Assembly (NCBI GenBank): GCA_964623465.1
Contig: CAZURZ010000001.1
Location: 1,660 to 65,659 of the forward strand
DNA from: an uncultured Elusimicrobia bacterium
GTDB taxonomy: Bacteria > Elusimicrobiota > Elusimicrobia > UBA1565 > UBA9628
Length of the DNA stretch: 64,000 nt
Direction: 5' to 3'
Numbering within the stretch: the first letter of the stretch is position 1; every line of letters begins with the position of its first letter. The notes under the pieces are model-generated. The model was not told the DNA's origin. It worked only from the letters and a program-made list of their open reading frames with translations, and ran no database searches. Positions 11,739 through 40,020 of this stretch are shown here, in pieces. The translations under genes were made by a program, and so were the position numbers.

Positions 11739-13829
11739 GTGAGCGAATCTCTCACCACGCCGGTCCAGTACCTCAAAGGAGTCGGCCCCCGCCGGGCCGT
11801 GCTCTTCGAGCGCCTGGGGGTGAAGACCCTCGGGGACCTGCTCACCCACTACCCCCGCCTGTGGCAGAACCGTCATGAAACGCAGGATCTGCGCCTGCCC
11901 ACGGCCTCGGGCCTGATCGTCCTGCGCGGCCGCGTCCTGCGCGCCTCCTCCCACGGGGCCGGGCCGCGCCTGGGCATCTACAAGGCGACCTTGGCCACCG
12001 CCCACGGCAAGGTCGACTGCCTGTGGTTCAAGCACCTCTCGCGCTCCTACGACGCCTTCGCCGCATTGAAGGCCGAGGCCGCCGAGGGGGCCGATCTATG
12101 GGTGATCGGCCGAGCCGAACCCGACCTCACCGGCGTGCGCGAGATCCGCGTCGACGAGCATTACCCGCTCTCCGACGAGCGCTGGCGCCTGCACGCGGGG
12201 CGCATCACGCCGGTGTACGCCCTCACCGAGGGCCTCTCCCAGCGCTTCGTGCGCGAGGCCGCCCACAAGACGCTCGAGGCCGCCGCCGACTCCGCGCGCG
12301 ACGTGGTCCCGGCCGAGCTCATCGCCAAGCGCAAGCTGCTGGCCGCCCCGCAGGCGCTGCGCGGCATCCATTTTCCGCGCTCGGAGGCCGAGCTCGAGGC
12401 CGCCCGCGCGCGCCTGGCCTACGAAGAGCTCCTGCTGCTCGAGCTGGCCTGGATTCTCAAGCGACGCCAGACCCGCGGCGTGAACAAGCGCTTCTCTTAC
12501 GAAGTGAAGCGCACCTTGCTGACCCCATTCCGTCAGAAGGCCGGCTTCGAGTTCACCGGCGCCCAGAAGCGGGTGATCAACGAGATCTTCGACGATATGA
12601 AGCAGCCGTACCCGATGACTCGTCTGCTCCAGGGCGACGTCGGCTCCGGAAAGACCGTCGTCGCGCTTTCCGCGCTCCTGCTCGCCGTCGAGAACGGCGG
12701 CCAGGCGGCCCTGATGGCGCCGACCGAGATCCTGGCCGACCAGCACCGCGCCACGCTCGACCGCTTCCTCAAGGACCTGCCCGTGCGCGTCGCCACCCTG
12801 ACCTCCCGCGTGCCCAAGAAGGAGCGCGAGAAGATCCTCGCCGCCGCCCGCGAGGGAAAGATCGACATCCTCGTCGGCACGCACGCCCTGATCGAGGCCG
12901 GCGTGGCCTTGCCGAATCTGCGCCTGGCCGTCATCGACGAACAGCACCGCTTCGGCGTGCGCCAGCGCACGACCTTGCGCCAGAAGGGCTCTTTGATCGA
13001 TCTTCTCGTCATGACCGCGACGCCGATCCCGCGCACGCTCGCGCTCTCGCTGTACGGCGACCTCGAGGCCTCCACGATCGACGAGATGCCTCCGGGCCGG
13101 ACGCCGATCAAGACCTTCCTGTCCCCGGAGGCCGAGGCGTTCGAGGCGATCCGCAAAGAGGTGAAGGCGGGACGTCAGGCGTACATCGTCTATCCGATCA
13201 TCGAGGACAGCGCCAACCAGGACCTCCAGTCGGCCAAAGCCGAGTTCGAGCGGATCAAAACGGCCGTCTTCCCGGACATTCCCGTGGAACTCATACACGG
13301 AGCGATGACCGGAAAAGCCAAGAGCGCCGCGATGAAGAACTTCGCCCTCGGGATGGCCAAAATTCTCGTCGCGACCCAGGTCATCGAGGTCGGCATCGAC
13401 GTCCCCAACGCGACGGTCATGGTCATCCAGAACGCCGACCGCTTCGGCCTGGCCTCGCTCCATCAGCTGCGCGGCCGCATCGGCCGGGGGGCGGCCGAGT
13501 CGTACTGCCACCTCGTCGGCGATCCGCGCACCGAGGAAGCCCGCGCGCGCCTCGCCATCATGGCGGAGACCTCCGACGGCTTCAAGATCGGCGAGGAAGA
13601 CCTGAAGCTGCGCGGCCCGGGCGAGCTGCTCGGGACCGCGCAGAGCGGAGAGCTGTCGCTGCTGGTCGCCGATCTGTTTAAAGACGCCGAGCTCCTTTCA
13701 CAGGCCCGCGCCGACGCCGACGAGCTGCTCAAGGCCGACGCCAAGCTGCGCGCTCCGGGCCACGCGCTCCTGCGCGAGCGCCTGATCGCGCTGTACCAGA
13801 GCCGCTGGAACTGGATCGACCTGGCCTAG
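11739..13829 (+). CDS. recG: ATP-dependent DNA helicase RecG
   Basis: 696 aa; N-terminal QYLKGVGPRRAVLFERLGVKTLGDLL wedge region; DEAD-box helicase motifs GDVGSGKT, DEQH; GTG start. Confidence 0.9.
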   Translation: MSESLTTPVQYLKGVGPRRAVLFERLGVKTLGDLLTHYPRLWQNRHETQDLRLPTASGLIVLRGRVLRASSHGAGPRLGIYKATLATAHGKVDCLWFKHLSRSYDAFAALKAEAAEGADLWVIGRAEPDLTGVREIRVDEHYPLSDERWRLHAGRITPVYALTEGLSQRFVREAAHKTLEAAADSARDVVPAELIAKRKLLAAPQALRGIHFPRSEAELEAARARLAYEELLLLELAWILKRRQTRGVNKRFSYEVKRTLLTPFRQKAGFEFTGAQKRVINEIFDDMKQPYPMTRLLQGDVGSGKTVVALSALLLAVENGGQAALMAPTEILADQHRATLDRFLKDLPVRVATLTSRVPKKEREKILAAAREGKIDILVGTHALIEAGVALPNLRLAVIDEQHRFGVRQRTTLRQKGSLIDLLVMTATPIPRTLALSLYGDLEASTIDEMPPGRTPIKTFLSPEAEAFEAIRKEVKAGRQAYIVYPIIEDSANQDLQSAKAEFERIKTAVFPDIPVELIHGAMTGKAKSAAMKNFALGMAKILVATQVIEVGIDVPNATVMVIQNADRFGLASLHQLRGRIGRGAAESYCHLVGDPRTEEARARLAIMAETSDGFKIGEEDLKLRGPGELLGTAQSGELSLLVADLFKDAELLSQARADADELLKADAKLRAPGHALLRERLIALYQSRWNWIDLA

Positions 13830-13857: not shown

Positions 13858-14730
13858 GTGCGGCTCGCGCTCCTCCTGCTGACCCTGGCGTCTCCCTCCG
13901 TCGCGCTCGACATCGCGCGCGAGGAGTTCAACGTGCTCGGCTGGACGAACGCCTGCTCGGTCGCCGTCGAGCGCTACGCCTACCCCTATCTCGGCGAGGC
14001 CATGGTCGCCGAACCGATCACCTCGCGCCTGGGGACCTTGACCATCGAGCTCAAGGCCCCGGTGACGGTCACGCGCTGGGTGTTCGAGGCCGACGGGGCG
14101 AACACCTACGATCCGCACGCGATCGAGCGCATGAAGCGCAAGCTGCGCAAATCCGGCTTCGACCGGCCCGGCTACGCCGAAGTGATCCGCGACTCCGAGA
14201 CCGTGGTCGCGGCGGGCAGCGCGGAGGTCATCCTCTCCACGGCGATCCTGGACGCGCGGCCGGATTTCTGGCCCGATACCACGCAATGGCGCTGGGCGCG
14301 CGCGCACTACAACCCCCTGGGCACCTGCGCCCTTCTCATCTACGAGGACCGCGAGCTGCCCGAACGCTACAAGTTCCTTCTCACCCGCATCTACAACCCG
14401 AGCGCGCGCTCCGACCGGGGCCGCGCGCACGCCGTCAACGGACGCCTGCTGTTCAACAAGGGCGATCTCGAAGGCGCGCTCTTCGAGACCGAGACCGGCG
14501 CCCGCCTGGCCCCCGAGGTCGGCGGGGTCCGCTACCAGTACGCCGCCATGCTCGCCATGAACGGGCGCCCGGACGCCGCCATGAAGGAGCTGACCGCCGC
14601 GATCAAGCGCGGCGAGTCCTACCGCCGCCAAGCCGCGGAGGACCTCGACTTCGAGACCCTGCGCCATCGCCAGGACTTCCAGGAGATCGTGCTCAAGCAG
14701 CCGCGGCCCGGCCCGCCCGTGCCCCCCTGA
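13858..14730 (+). CDS. hypothetical secreted protein
   Basis: Signal peptide; GTG start lies 7 nt after a TATACT -10 element (possibly leaderless). Confidence 0.5.
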   Translation: MRLALLLLTLASPSVALDIAREEFNVLGWTNACSVAVERYAYPYLGEAMVAEPITSRLGTLTIELKAPVTVTRWVFEADGANTYDPHAIERMKRKLRKSGFDRPGYAEVIRDSETVVAAGSAEVILSTAILDARPDFWPDTTQWRWARAHYNPLGTCALLIYEDRELPERYKFLLTRIYNPSARSDRGRAHAVNGRLLFNKGDLEGALFETETGARLAPEVGGVRYQYAAMLAMNGRPDAAMKELTAAIKRGESYRRQAAEDLDFETLRHRQDFQEIVLKQPRPGPPVPP

Positions 14731-14752: not shown

Positions 14753-14781
14753 TTGAACACGCTCGTCCAAACGGCTATACT
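14753..14781 (+). promoter_or_regulatory. sigma70-type promoter of the metH leader (TTGAAC -17 bp- TATACT)
   Basis: Near-consensus -35 and -10 hexamers with 17-bp spacing about 100 nt upstream of metH. Confidence 0.55.
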
Positions 14782-14789
14782 GAATGAGT

Positions 14790-14842
14790 CGCAGGCGAGG
14801 ATTTGAGCCCGATTGCCCCACGCCGAATGGGAGCTAAAAAGG
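14790..14842 (+). ncRNA. SAM-II-like riboswitch candidate
   Basis: P1 stem GGCGAGG/CCACGCC encloses a 17-nt loop GAUUUGAGCCCGAUUGCC; the 3' tail AGCUAAAAAGG closely matches the SAM-II (metX) riboswitch as I recall it (GAUUUAACCGUAUUGCA loop, AGCUAAAAAGG tail); sits in the 5' leader of metH. Confidence 0.55.
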
Positions 14843-14850
14843 CAGACGAG

Positions 14851-14876
14851 ACCACGCTACGGCGTGGTTTTTTATT
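14851..14876 (+). terminator. intrinsic terminator / expression platform of the metH leader
   Basis: Hairpin ACCACGC-uac-GGCGTGGT followed by TTTTTTATTT, 3 nt before the metH ATG. Confidence 0.6.
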
Positions 14877-14878
14877 TG

Positions 14879-18405
<3,527 letters not shown>

Positions 18406-18409
<4 letters not shown>

Positions 18410-39946: not shown

Positions 39947-40020
39947 GCCCCCGTAGCTCAGTTGGTTAGAGCAGCCTGCTCATAACGGGTTGGTCCCTGG
40001 TTCGAGTCCAGGCGGGGGCA
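39947..40020 (+). tRNA. tRNA-Met (anticodon CAT), elongator-type (tRNA-Ile2 with lysidine not excluded)
   Basis: Cloverleaf: acceptor GCCCCCG/CGGGGGC, D-arm GCTC..GAGC, anticodon loop CTCATAA, T-arm CCTGG-TTCGAGT-CCAGG, discriminator A; G1-C72 and no triple GC in the anticodon stem, so not an initiator. Confidence 0.85.

What the first reader, a model, noticed from the sequence alone, without database searches (positions are those of the whole stretch)
14753..14878. SAM-II-like riboswitch followed by an intrinsic terminator in the leader of metH
A near-consensus promoter (TTGAAC-17-TATACT) initiates an approximately 90-nt leader. It contains a stem (GGCGAGG/CCACGCC) enclosing a 17-nt loop GAUUUGAGCCCGAUUGCC and a 3' tail AGCUAAAAAGG. 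Loop length and sequence and the tail closely resemble the SAM-II riboswitch as I remember it from the metX structure (loop GAUUUAACCGUAUUGCA, tail AGCUAAAAAGG). SAM-II normally controls translation by sequestering the ribosome-binding site. Here the aptamer is followed 8 nt later by a GC hairpin plus U-tract directly abutting the metH start codon, which suggests transcription attenuation instead. Control of metH by SAM-II is also not the usual gene context.
Basis: partly seen in the sequence, partly recalled or inferred. Interest (0 to 1): 0.6.

Follow-up and report, generated by a model that had tools for sequence, protein, structure and literature searches.

The report
SAM-II/SAM-V-type riboswitch controlling metH
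The leader of the methionine synthase gene metH carries an unannotated variant of the known SAM-II/SAM-V family of S-adenosylmethionine-sensing RNA switches, followed by a transcription terminator; it is conserved in about 90 related sequences but is missed by the standard RNA family database.

Summary
They belong to an RNA element conserved upstream of metH in Elusimicrobiota genomes and metagenomes (92 covariance-model hits, 84 distinct; window 89 bits, E about 1e-19).

Rfam SAM-II scores 11 bits against a threshold of 36, and SAM-V gives no hit. Comparative analysis still shows an H-type pseudoknot with SAM-II/SAM-V topology, and every nucleotide that contacts SAM in the SAM-V crystal structure has a counterpart.

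Only the outer GGC/GCC of the proposed 7-bp stem is a supported helix (P1). The inner part belongs to a lengthened P2, giving P1 of 3 bp and P2 of 8 bp plus a bulged A. SAM-II has P1 of 6 bp or more and P2 of 4 bp; SAM-V has 4 and 6.

A terminator after SAM-II is normal according to the literature, not unusual. metH as the main target is unusual.

The likely mechanism is a SAM-dependent OFF switch. SAM docks the 5' strand into the triplex and frees the terminator. Without SAM, that strand can pair with the terminator's 5' half. This last step is inferred and energetically weak.

Verdict: new variant of a known kind, moderate interest.

The parts
14753..14758 (+). -35-like hexamer TTGAAC
   Evidence: Promoter scan
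14776..14781 (+). -10 hexamer TATACT. The inferred transcription start is about 14788, 5-7 nt before P1.
   Evidence: A TATAAT-like box lies at a conserved distance in the relatives. The same layout is described for SAM-II in PMC1273637.
14794..14796 (+). P1 5' strand GGC. It is also the start of the proposed switching strand.
   Evidence: Pairs with 14822-24. 99.2% of cells are paired in 84 sequences. Outer pair G-C 72-73, A-U 3, G.U 3, C-G 1.
14797..14806 (+). L1 / triplex third strand GAGGAUUUGA. U14802-04 correspond to SAM-V U8-U10.
   Evidence: Invariant GAGGAUUU in the protein-retrieved genome set. Mapping to the SAM-V structure text.
14807..14809 (+). P2a 5' strand GCC
   Evidence: Pairs with 14841-43. 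First pair GC 55, UA 10, AU 4, CG 4.
14812..14816 (+). A + P2b 5' strand UUGC (SAM-V A18, U19, U20, G21, C/U22 equivalents)
   Evidence: Invariant UUGC. Pairs with 14833-37.
14817..14820 (+). P2c 5' strand CCCA, an extension of P2 absent from SAM-II
   Evidence: Pairs with 14828-31. Compensatory C-G to G-C in L023 and L037. Fourth pair GC/AU/GU.
14822..14824 (+). P1 3' strand GCC
14825..14827 (+). L3 GAA. It occupies the place of SAM-V A40-A42. In some relatives an optional P3 hairpin is inserted here.
   Evidence: L3 is usually N-A-C or N-A-A. P3-like insertions occur in L028, L031, L056, L081, L085 and L096.
14828..14831 (+). P2c 3' strand UGGG
14832..14832 (+). Bulged nucleotide between P2c and P2b (A here; variable in the family)
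   Evidence: A 53, U 13, C 11, G 7
14833..14838 (+). P2b 3' strand GCUAAA. U14835 is the single bulged U (SAM-V U47, which pairs with the SAM adenine). A14836-38 correspond to A48-A50.
   Evidence: Invariant in the genome set. Roles taken from PMC6061858.
14841..14843 (+). P2a 3' strand GGC
14844..14847 (+). Linker AGAC. With 14848-50 it can pair weakly with L1 UUUG in the proposed antiterminator.
   Evidence: inferred
14848..14877 (+). Intrinsic terminator: stem 14848-57 / 14862-71, loop UACG, U-tract. The 5' strand CCACGCU (14852-58) is complementary to GGCGAGG.
   Evidence: All 10 pairs show changes on both sides across the family. Antiterminator complementarity.
14879..18409 (+). metH (cobalamin-dependent methionine synthase, 1176 aa), the regulated gene
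   Evidence: Pfam S-methyl_trans, Pterin_bind, B12-binding_2, B12-binding and Met_synt_B12

Best explanation
The roughly 90-nt metH leader is a SAM-responsive OFF riboswitch of the SAM-II/SAM-V structural superfamily.

Fold: the aptamer (14794-14843) is an H-type pseudoknot.
- A 3-bp P1 (GGC/GCC) stacks under a long P2, made of P2c CCCA/UGGG, a bulged A, P2b UUGC/GC(U)AA and P2a GCC/GGC.
- The 5' strand GAGGAUUUGA lies in the P2 major groove as a triplex third strand.

Switching (inferred): P2 is a local hairpin that can form without ligand. What SAM would stabilise is the docking of the 5' strand, that is P1 plus the triplex.
- With SAM, the 5' strand is held in the aptamer. The terminator (14848-14877) forms and transcription stops before metH.
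- Without SAM, the free strand GGCGAGGAUUU can pair with the linker and the terminator's 5' strand (CCACGCU). This delays terminator formation and allows read-through.

What is shown: conservation, the pseudoknot, conservation of the binding-site nucleotides, the terminator, and the gene association. What is inferred: that SAM is the ligand, the OFF logic, and the antiterminator.
For: - Family: the model finds 34 genome copies, all directly upstream of metH, and 92 hits in total.
- Structure: P1, P2a, P2b/c and the terminator are 96.8% paired. 15 pairs show changes on both sides, against 6.1 in shuffles (0 of 500 reach this). Slid controls give 35-53% paired.
- P1: the outer pair covaries (A-U in L030, L082 and L122; C-G in L085).
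- P2a: all four Watson-Crick pair types occur.
- Binding site: every SAM-V contact named in PMC6061858 (U47, U8-U10, U19, U20, G21, A48-A50, A18) has a conserved counterpart. The crystallised metY SAM-V RNA even has the same P1, GGC/GCC.
- Rfam: SAM_alpha is the only riboswitch family among the weak matches, and in L113 it is the top match.
- Gene contexts found without regard to the gene: metH in 37 of 61, MetY-type PLP enzyme, class-I methyltransferase.
- Two expression platforms for one aptamer: a terminator in most copies; in L113, L116 and L108 the 3' tail overlaps the Shine-Dalgarno sequence or abuts the start codon, with no terminator.
- Antiterminator: 6 of 7 positions can pair in all 27 sequences, and the terminator varies only at positions outside the pairing or opposite its mismatch. 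L086, L087, L100 and L109 carry a perfect CCUCGC in otherwise different terminators. When transcripts are folded without the terminator's 3' strand, its 5' strand pairs with the GGCGAGG columns for 4.6 of 5.5 expected pairs.
Against: - No Rfam SAM family reaches its threshold.
- P1 is only 3 bp, and two sequences break its outer pair (L100 C.A, L056 A.A).
- The invariance of GCGAGGAUUU, UUGCCCC and GCUAAA in the metagenome set was partly imposed by the search pattern. Only the 34 protein-retrieved genome copies are unbiased for those columns.
- The antiterminator has no compensatory support, because its 5' partner is invariant. Its complementarity is only moderately above shuffled controls (mean z -1.5).
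- In the window the antiterminator conformer is about 8 kcal/mol less stable than the terminator conformer (-18.8 against -26.5), so it could only act kinetically.
- L013 and L015 keep the hairpin and U-tract after losing the aptamer, so the hairpin may not depend on the aptamer.
- No ligand-binding or expression data exist.
Confidence: 0.78

Rival explanations
1. It is an ordinary member of SAM-II (RF00521), folded: a 7-bp P1 (GGCGAGG/CCACGCC) closing a 17-nt loop.
For: The Rfam model aligns over its full length to 14785-14858 with that P1. In the window itself the stem is 6 of 7 complementary.
Against: The score is 11 bits against a threshold of 36. Across 27 relatives the helix is 77% paired with no covariation. 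One middle pair never forms and the other forms in only 5 of the 14 sequences that have a base at that position. In L023 and L037 its pair at 14800/14818 breaks while the competing P2c pair is compensated. SAM-II is defined by P1 of 6 bp or more and P2 of 4 bp, and neither is met.
Confidence: 0.05
2. It has the same fold but senses a different ligand, such as SAH, another SAM-related metabolite or a polyamine, as happened with the SAM-I variants that sense spermidine.
For: Variant aptamers can change ligand (PMC10853860). P1, P2 and the third strand differ in length from SAM-II and SAM-V. A few copies precede genes with no obvious link to methionine: AAA_25 ATPase, Rrf2, small unknown proteins, BcrAD_BadFG.
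Against: In the known cases of ligand change, the ligand-contacting nucleotides mutated and the gene context moved away from SAM. Here all the contact positions are kept, including the U.A-U triple that recognises the sulfonium, and the main contexts are metH and metY. An SAH sensor in front of metH would be expected to switch expression ON, which does not fit a design that favours termination.
Confidence: 0.08
3. It is an independent small RNA gene (promoter, about 85 nt, terminator) that acts in trans and only happens to lie next to metH.
For: The unit has its own promoter and a strong terminator. Weak Rfam matches to sRNA families such as RsmY and istR appear.
Against: Those Rfam matches are driven by the terminator hairpin alone (alignments). 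The element is always on the same strand and directly upstream of the gene, in more than 70 metH loci. Versions without a terminator fuse the aptamer tail to the ribosome-binding site or the start codon, which only makes sense for control in cis. A terminated riboswitch transcript could still have a secondary role in trans.
Confidence: 0.05
4. It is a chance resemblance: the hairpin is simply the terminator of the upstream gene (which ends at 14730), and the rest is an unstructured spacer.
For: The hairpin lies about 120 nt downstream of the upstream ORF. L013 and L015 keep the hairpin without the aptamer.
Against: A conserved -10 box lies between the upstream gene and the element. Model E-values are about 1e-19. 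The covariation is significant. The same element precedes other genes in unrelated contigs.
Confidence: 0.02

Closest known systems
SAM-V riboswitch (Rfam RF01826; metY/bhmT of Candidatus Pelagibacter; PDB 6FZ0)
   Same: [quoted passage not shown] A short P1 with the identical sequence GGC/GCC in the crystallised metY RNA. P2 extended below the G-C/C-G core. A single bulged U opposite the SAM adenine. The UUU third strand and AAA tail. An optional P3 stem-loop between the P1 3' strand and the rising P2 strand, followed by A-rich L3. Some family members (L113, L116, L108) use the tail to mask the ribosome-binding site or start codon, as SAM-V does.
   Different: No Rfam SAM-V hit at E<=10. P1 is 3 bp rather than 4. 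P2 is 8 bp with an extra bulged nucleotide rather than 6. The third strand is 9-10 nt rather than 7, with an invariant GAGG extension. The element is G+C-rich and occurs in Elusimicrobiota-type genomes, not in marine alpha-proteobacteria or Bacteroidetes. Most copies, including the window, use a terminator rather than translational control.
SAM-II riboswitch (Rfam RF00521 SAM_alpha; metA/metX; PDB 2QWY)
   Same: The only riboswitch family among the weak Rfam matches (11-15.5 bits) and the top match in L113, aligning GAUUUGA, UUGC and GCUAAA.AGGC. The same pseudoknot topology, and per PMC6061858 the same SAM-binding core as SAM-V. A promoter a few nucleotides before P1 and an intrinsic terminator between P2 and the ORF are typical of SAM-II (PMC1273637). 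A G+C-rich P2a is also typical.
   Different: The score is far below the gathering threshold. P1 is 3 bp against 6 or more. P2 is 8 bp plus a bulge against 4. P3 is present in some members. The phylum differs. metH is the dominant target, whereas the SAM_alpha regulon is metY/metA/metX/hom/metC/metW.
SAH riboswitch (RF01057), which in my recollection often precedes ahcY-metF-metH in beta- and gamma-proteobacteria
   Same: A riboswitch in front of methionine-cycle genes including metH.
   Different: No Rfam hit. A different fold. It is an ON switch for SAH recycling. The element here has SAM-II/V binding-site nucleotides and an architecture that favours termination.

Membership tests
SAM-II (RF00521) | Covariance-model score at or above the Rfam gathering score (36 bits) | tested here: not met
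   11.0 bits, E=1.9 on 106 nt. 15.5 bits for relative L113. No gathering-level hit in the window or in 35 related loci.
SAM-II (RF00521) | H-type pseudoknot: P1 stem plus P2 pseudoknot supported by covariation | tested here: met
   P1 is 99.2% paired, with A-U, G.U and C-G variants. P2a shows four Watson-Crick pair types. The whole structure beats all 500 shuffles and all slid controls.
SAM-II (RF00521) | P1 of 6 bp or more and P2 of exactly 4 bp, no P3 (PMC6061858 supplement) | tested here: not met
   P1 is 3 bp. P2b+P2c is 8 bp with a bulged nucleotide. P3-like hairpins occur in some members.
SAM-II / SAM-V shared core | Conserved ligand-site nucleotides: bulged U, UUU third strand, UU of the descending strand, G-C/C-G below the site, AAA tail | tested here: met
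   U14835, U14802-04, U14813-14, G14815/C14816 with G14833/C14834, A14836-38 and A14812. These are invariant or nearly so in the genome set and family-wide.
SAM-II / SAM-V shared core | Binds SAM and discriminates against SAH | not testable with these tools
   Needs in-line probing, ITC or equilibrium dialysis.
SAM-II (RF00521) | Usual layout: promoter a few nucleotides before P1, intrinsic terminator between P2 and the ORF | tested here: met
   Layout described in PMC1273637.
SAM-V (RF01826) | Covariance-model hit | tested here: not met
   No SAM-V match at E<=10 in the 106-nt or 201-nt searches.
SAM-V (RF01826) | P1 4 bp, P2 6 bp, P3 stem-loop in most members | tested here: not met
   P1 is 3 bp (same GGC/GCC sequence as metY SAM-V). 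P2 is 8 bp plus a bulge. P3 is absent in the window and most Elusimicrobiota copies, and present in a minority.
SAM-V (RF01826) | Translational control: Shine-Dalgarno sequence within or next to P2a | tested here: not met
   The window has a terminator, and the start codon is 36 nt past P2a. The feature is met only in L113 and L116 (AGGAGG in the tail) and approximately in L108 (the AUG abuts the tail).
Intrinsic (Rho-independent) terminator | G+C-rich hairpin directly followed by a U-tract, conserved as a structure | tested here: met
   A 10-bp stem plus UUUUUU. All 10 pairs show compensatory changes across 84 sequences. Termination activity itself was not tested.

The most novel reading that the evidence does not exclude
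This is a third, separately nameable class within the SAM-II/SAM-V clan. It has P1 of 3 bp, P2 of 8 bp, an invariant GAGG extension of the triplex strand, and an optional P3. Its 5' triplex strand, rather than its 3' tail, is the switching element, because it doubles as the antiterminator. The class is widespread in Elusimicrobiota and in other uncultivated lineages, and is sometimes found in tandem. Some copies have been recruited to genes outside methionine metabolism (AAA_25 ATPase, Rrf2, small unknown proteins).
Probability: 0.35. Interest if true: 0.6.

Novelty: new variant of a known kind. Interest (0 to 1): 0.45.

Why it matters
- **Distribution:** it extends the SAM-II/SAM-V pseudoknot-triplex solution for sensing SAM to a phylum (Elusimicrobiota) and to metagenomic lineages where no such riboswitch is annotated.
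- **Annotation gap:** the current Rfam models miss a whole branch of the family. Genome annotation therefore leaves metH regulation in these organisms unexplained.
- **Structural insight:** P1 gets shorter as P2 and the third strand get longer (SAM-II, then SAM-V, then this family). This natural series shows which parts of the fold can change while the SAM pocket stays fixed.
- **Mechanism:** if the 5' strand really is the switching element, it offers a concrete, testable model for how transcriptional riboswitches of the SAM-II type couple triplex docking to termination. I found no such model in the papers I read.
- **Practical use:** the new covariance model could be used to annotate methionine regulons in uncultivated bacteria.

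Tried and rejected
- **Rfam at gathering threshold** on the window and on 35 related loci found no SAM family. Permissive searches gave only sub-threshold SAM_alpha matches. The sRNA matches (RsmY, istR, anti-hemB and others) are caused by the terminator hairpin.
- **My first reading of CCCNG...CNGGG** as a separate 'P3' hairpin conflicting with P1 was replaced after I read the SAM-V structure paper. It is an extension of P2, and its 'loop' holds the P1 3' strand and L3.
- **My recollection of a 'SAM-II long loop' family** in Weinberg 2017 was not confirmed. The paper does not mention SAM-II.
- **Literature searches** for SAM-II with Elusimicrobia found nothing.
- **A viral-contig scan** for the motif found nothing.
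- **Single-sequence MFE folding** of the leader is uninformative for the pseudoknot (z = -1.9).
- **L092, L093 and L135** from the pattern scan look like chance matches, lacking P2a and P2c, and were excluded.
- **Not attempted:** taxonomy of the non-metH metagenomic contigs.

Full report
**Observation**

- A promoter-like TTGAAC-17-TATACT at 14753-14781. The scan finds it, against 0.1 sites expected in shuffles.
- GGCGAGG at 14794-14800 and CCACGCC at 14818-24.
- A 17-nt loop, and the tail AGCUAAAAAGG at 14832-42.
- A 10-bp G+C-rich hairpin (14848-71) with a U-tract.
- An ATG at 14879 opening a 1176-aa protein with all five MetH domains.

The upstream genes are recG (11739-13829) and an unassigned ORF (13858-14730).

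Rfam 15 at gathering thresholds finds only a tRNA in the window. With permissive filters on 106-201 nt, SAM_alpha (RF00521) aligns over its full length but scores 11.0 bits (E=1.9, gathering score 36). SAM-V, SAH and SAM/SAH do not appear at E<=10. The higher-ranked sRNA matches rest on the terminator hairpin alone.

**Comparative evidence**

The MetH N-terminal domain retrieved 80 loci from species-representative genomes. The closest are high-G+C Elusimicrobiota MAGs.
- A regular expression and then a covariance model (R1, built from 27 aligned leaders) found the element immediately upstream of metH, on the same strand, in 34 loci at E<1e-5. The window copy scores 89 bits. There is no second copy in the 64 kb.
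- A -10 box of TATAAT type sits at a constant distance from the element, 13-15 nt before GGCGAGG.
- A pattern scan of metagenomes that ignored gene context gave 61 more loci. In total, 92 model hits (84 distinct) were aligned.
- None of the 35 related loci scanned reaches any Rfam SAM gathering score. The relative L113 gives SAM_alpha 15.5 bits, again below threshold.

**Structure**

- It is 77% paired, with no covariation.
- One of its two middle pairs never forms, and the other forms in only 5 of the 14 sequences that have a base at that position.
- One inner G-C pair breaks in L023 and L037, exactly where a competing pair is compensated (C-G to G-C).

The conserved fold became clear after reading the SAM-V crystal structure paper (PMC6061858). 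In window coordinates:

| Element | Coordinates | Sequence |
|---|---|---|
| P1 | 14794-96 with 14822-24 | GGC / GCC |
| Third strand (L1) | 14797-14806 | GAGGAUUUGA |
| P2a | 14807-09 with 14841-43 | GCC / GGC |
| P2b | 14813-16 with 14833-37 | UUGC / GC(U)AA, U14835 bulged |
| P2c | 14817-20 with 14828-31 | CCCA / UGGG, set off by bulged A14832 |
| L3 | 14825-27 | GAA |

On the 84 distinct sequences this pseudoknot plus the terminator is 96.8% paired. Fifteen pairs change on both sides, against 6.1 in shuffles (0 of 500 shuffles reach this), and slid controls give 35-53% paired.
- P2a shows GC 55, UA 10, AU 4 and CG 4 at one position.
- The outer P1 pair is G-C in 72 sequences. It is A-U in all three sequences with a 5' A (L030, L082, L122), C-G in L085, and G.U in three. 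There are two exceptions, L100 and L056.
- Variable hairpins are inserted after the P1 3' strand in L028, L031, L056, L081, L085 and L096, where SAM-V has its P3. L025 has a roughly 70-nt insertion between P2c and the P1 3' strand, and L068 has a hairpin inserted after AUUU in the third strand.

**Relation to SAM-II and SAM-V**

According to PMC6061858 and its supplement, SAM-II has P1 of 6 bp or more, P2 of 4 bp and no P3. SAM-V has P1 of 4 bp, P2 of 6 bp and usually a P3. The two share an almost superimposable SAM pocket. The present family continues that trend: P1 of 3 bp, P2 of 8 bp plus a bulge, and a third strand of 9-10 nt against 7. The crystallised metY SAM-V RNA has the same P1 sequence, GGC/GCC.

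Every contact named for SAM-V has a conserved counterpart here:
- U47, the bulged U that pairs with the SAM adenine.
- U8-U10 of the third strand.
- U19, U20 and G21.
- A48-A50.
- A18. Its equivalent here is A in 68 sequences and C in 14; the Rfam SAM-II consensus has C at that position.

One caveat applies. In the metagenome set, GCGAGGAUUU, UUGCCCC and GCUAAA were required by the search pattern. For those columns only the protein-retrieved genome set is unbiased, and there they are also invariant.

**Ligand and logic**

SAM is inferred, not shown. Three things support it:
- The pocket is conserved.
- The gene contexts fit: metH in 37 of 61 context-blind hits, MetY-type PLP enzymes (L081, L125) and a class-I methyltransferase (L113, L116).
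- Aptamer variants known to have changed ligand mutated their contact residues and changed gene context (PMC10853860). Neither is seen here.

The same aptamer occurs with two kinds of expression platform. Most copies have a terminator. In L113 and L116 the tail reads GCUAAAAGGAGG just before the start codon. In L108 and L137 the metH AUG directly abuts the tail, with no terminator. This is typical riboswitch behaviour and argues against a stand-alone sRNA.

**Expression platform**

How the switch works is my inference.
- P2 is a nested local hairpin (-10.4 kcal/mol) that needs no ligand. What SAM should stabilise is the docking of the 5' strand.
- That strand, GGCG-A-GG, is complementary to the terminator's 5' strand, CC-R-CGY. 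Six of seven positions can pair in all 27 genome sequences.
- The terminator varies only at the position opposite the mismatch and at positions outside the pairing.
- In sub-lineages with different terminators a perfect CCUCGC appears instead (L086, L087, L100, L109).
- When transcripts are folded without the terminator's 3' strand, its 5' strand pairs almost exclusively with the GGCGAGG columns: 4.6 of 5.5 expected pairs.

Against this step:
- There can be no covariation, because one partner is invariant.
- The enrichment over shuffles is moderate (mean z -1.5).
- The antiterminator conformer in the window is about 8 kcal/mol less stable than the terminator conformer (-18.8 against -26.5), so it could only act kinetically.
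- L013 and L015 keep the hairpin after losing the aptamer.

I put about 0.8 on 'SAM-II/V-type SAM OFF riboswitch' and about 0.5 on this particular antiterminator.

**Novelty**

I found no description of this variant. Rfam 15 does not capture it, literature searches found nothing, and Weinberg 2017 does not mention SAM-II at all. The absence of a report is limited by the library I could search.

The gene context (metH) differs from the alpha-proteobacterial SAM_alpha regulon (PMC4239095), although SAM repression of metH makes biological sense.

I classify it as a new variant of a known kind. It has the same pocket and topology, but different helix lengths, a different phylum and a different main target, and it falls below the thresholds of both existing models. 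Interest is moderate.

Noticed in passing
L085:1487-1795 (identical in L128) and L119:332-700: Two complete units, each with an aptamer and its own terminator, lie in tandem. The second aptamers have GGUGAGGCUUU or GGCGAGGCUUU (C in place of the A before UUU). L085 has yet another copy at 2398-2541, before an NAD-dependent epimerase gene.
   Followed up: partly
L108:4203-4280 and L137:4609-4686: The same aptamer lies in front of metH with no terminator. The metH AUG follows the tail directly (GCUAAAGAGGAUG), so the start codon or ribosome-binding region would be masked by P2a. This is a translational version for the same gene.
   Followed up: yes
L113:1722-1807, L116:386-471: The aptamer tail reads GCUAAAAGGAGGCGUCAUG in L113 (GCUAAAGGAGGCGUUAUG in L116), so the Shine-Dalgarno sequence lies inside the P2a 3' strand, upstream of a class-I SAM-dependent methyltransferase (Methyltransf_11). 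There is no terminator.
   Followed up: partly
L086, L087, L100, L109 (aptamer hits listed): One sub-lineage of the motif is followed by a terminator with a perfect complement (CCUCGC) to the invariant 5' GCGAGG. In L087 and L109 it precedes an AAA_25 (RepA-like) ATPase; in L086 and L100 it precedes unassigned ORFs. Neither context has an obvious link to methionine. A scan of viral contigs for the motif found nothing.
   Followed up: partly
L096, L123, L141: The motif precedes a small conserved protein of about 90-125 aa containing ELVEAFNREVGNPGWTGARGAYLAALHREF. It has no Pfam match.
   Followed up: no
L122:1563-1681: The motif precedes an Rrf2-family transcription regulator in a low-G+C contig.
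   Followed up: no
L013:1469-1568 and L015:2880-2983: In these metH leaders the aptamer is degenerate (L013) or absent (L015). A new GGGTATAAT -10 box sits directly before the retained terminator-like hairpin and U-tract, so the hairpin persists without the sensor.
   Followed up: no
window 14872-14881: The window's metH ATG (14879) follows the terminator U-tract with no recognisable Shine-Dalgarno sequence (UUUUUUAUUUGAUG). L016 is the same. Close relatives such as L001 have AAGAGGAAC and a TTG start instead.
   Followed up: no
L017:2888-2986: An aberrant member. A small hairpin or a longer P2a (GCGCC/GGCGC) is inserted after the third strand, and AAUAGGCC replaces AAUUGCC in the P2b 5' strand.
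   Followed up: no
window 39947-40020: A tRNA gene on the + strand (Rfam 67 bits). By eye the anticodon loop reads CUCAUAA, i.e. anticodon CAU (Met or Ile2). It is the only Rfam gathering-level hit in the window.
   Followed up: no
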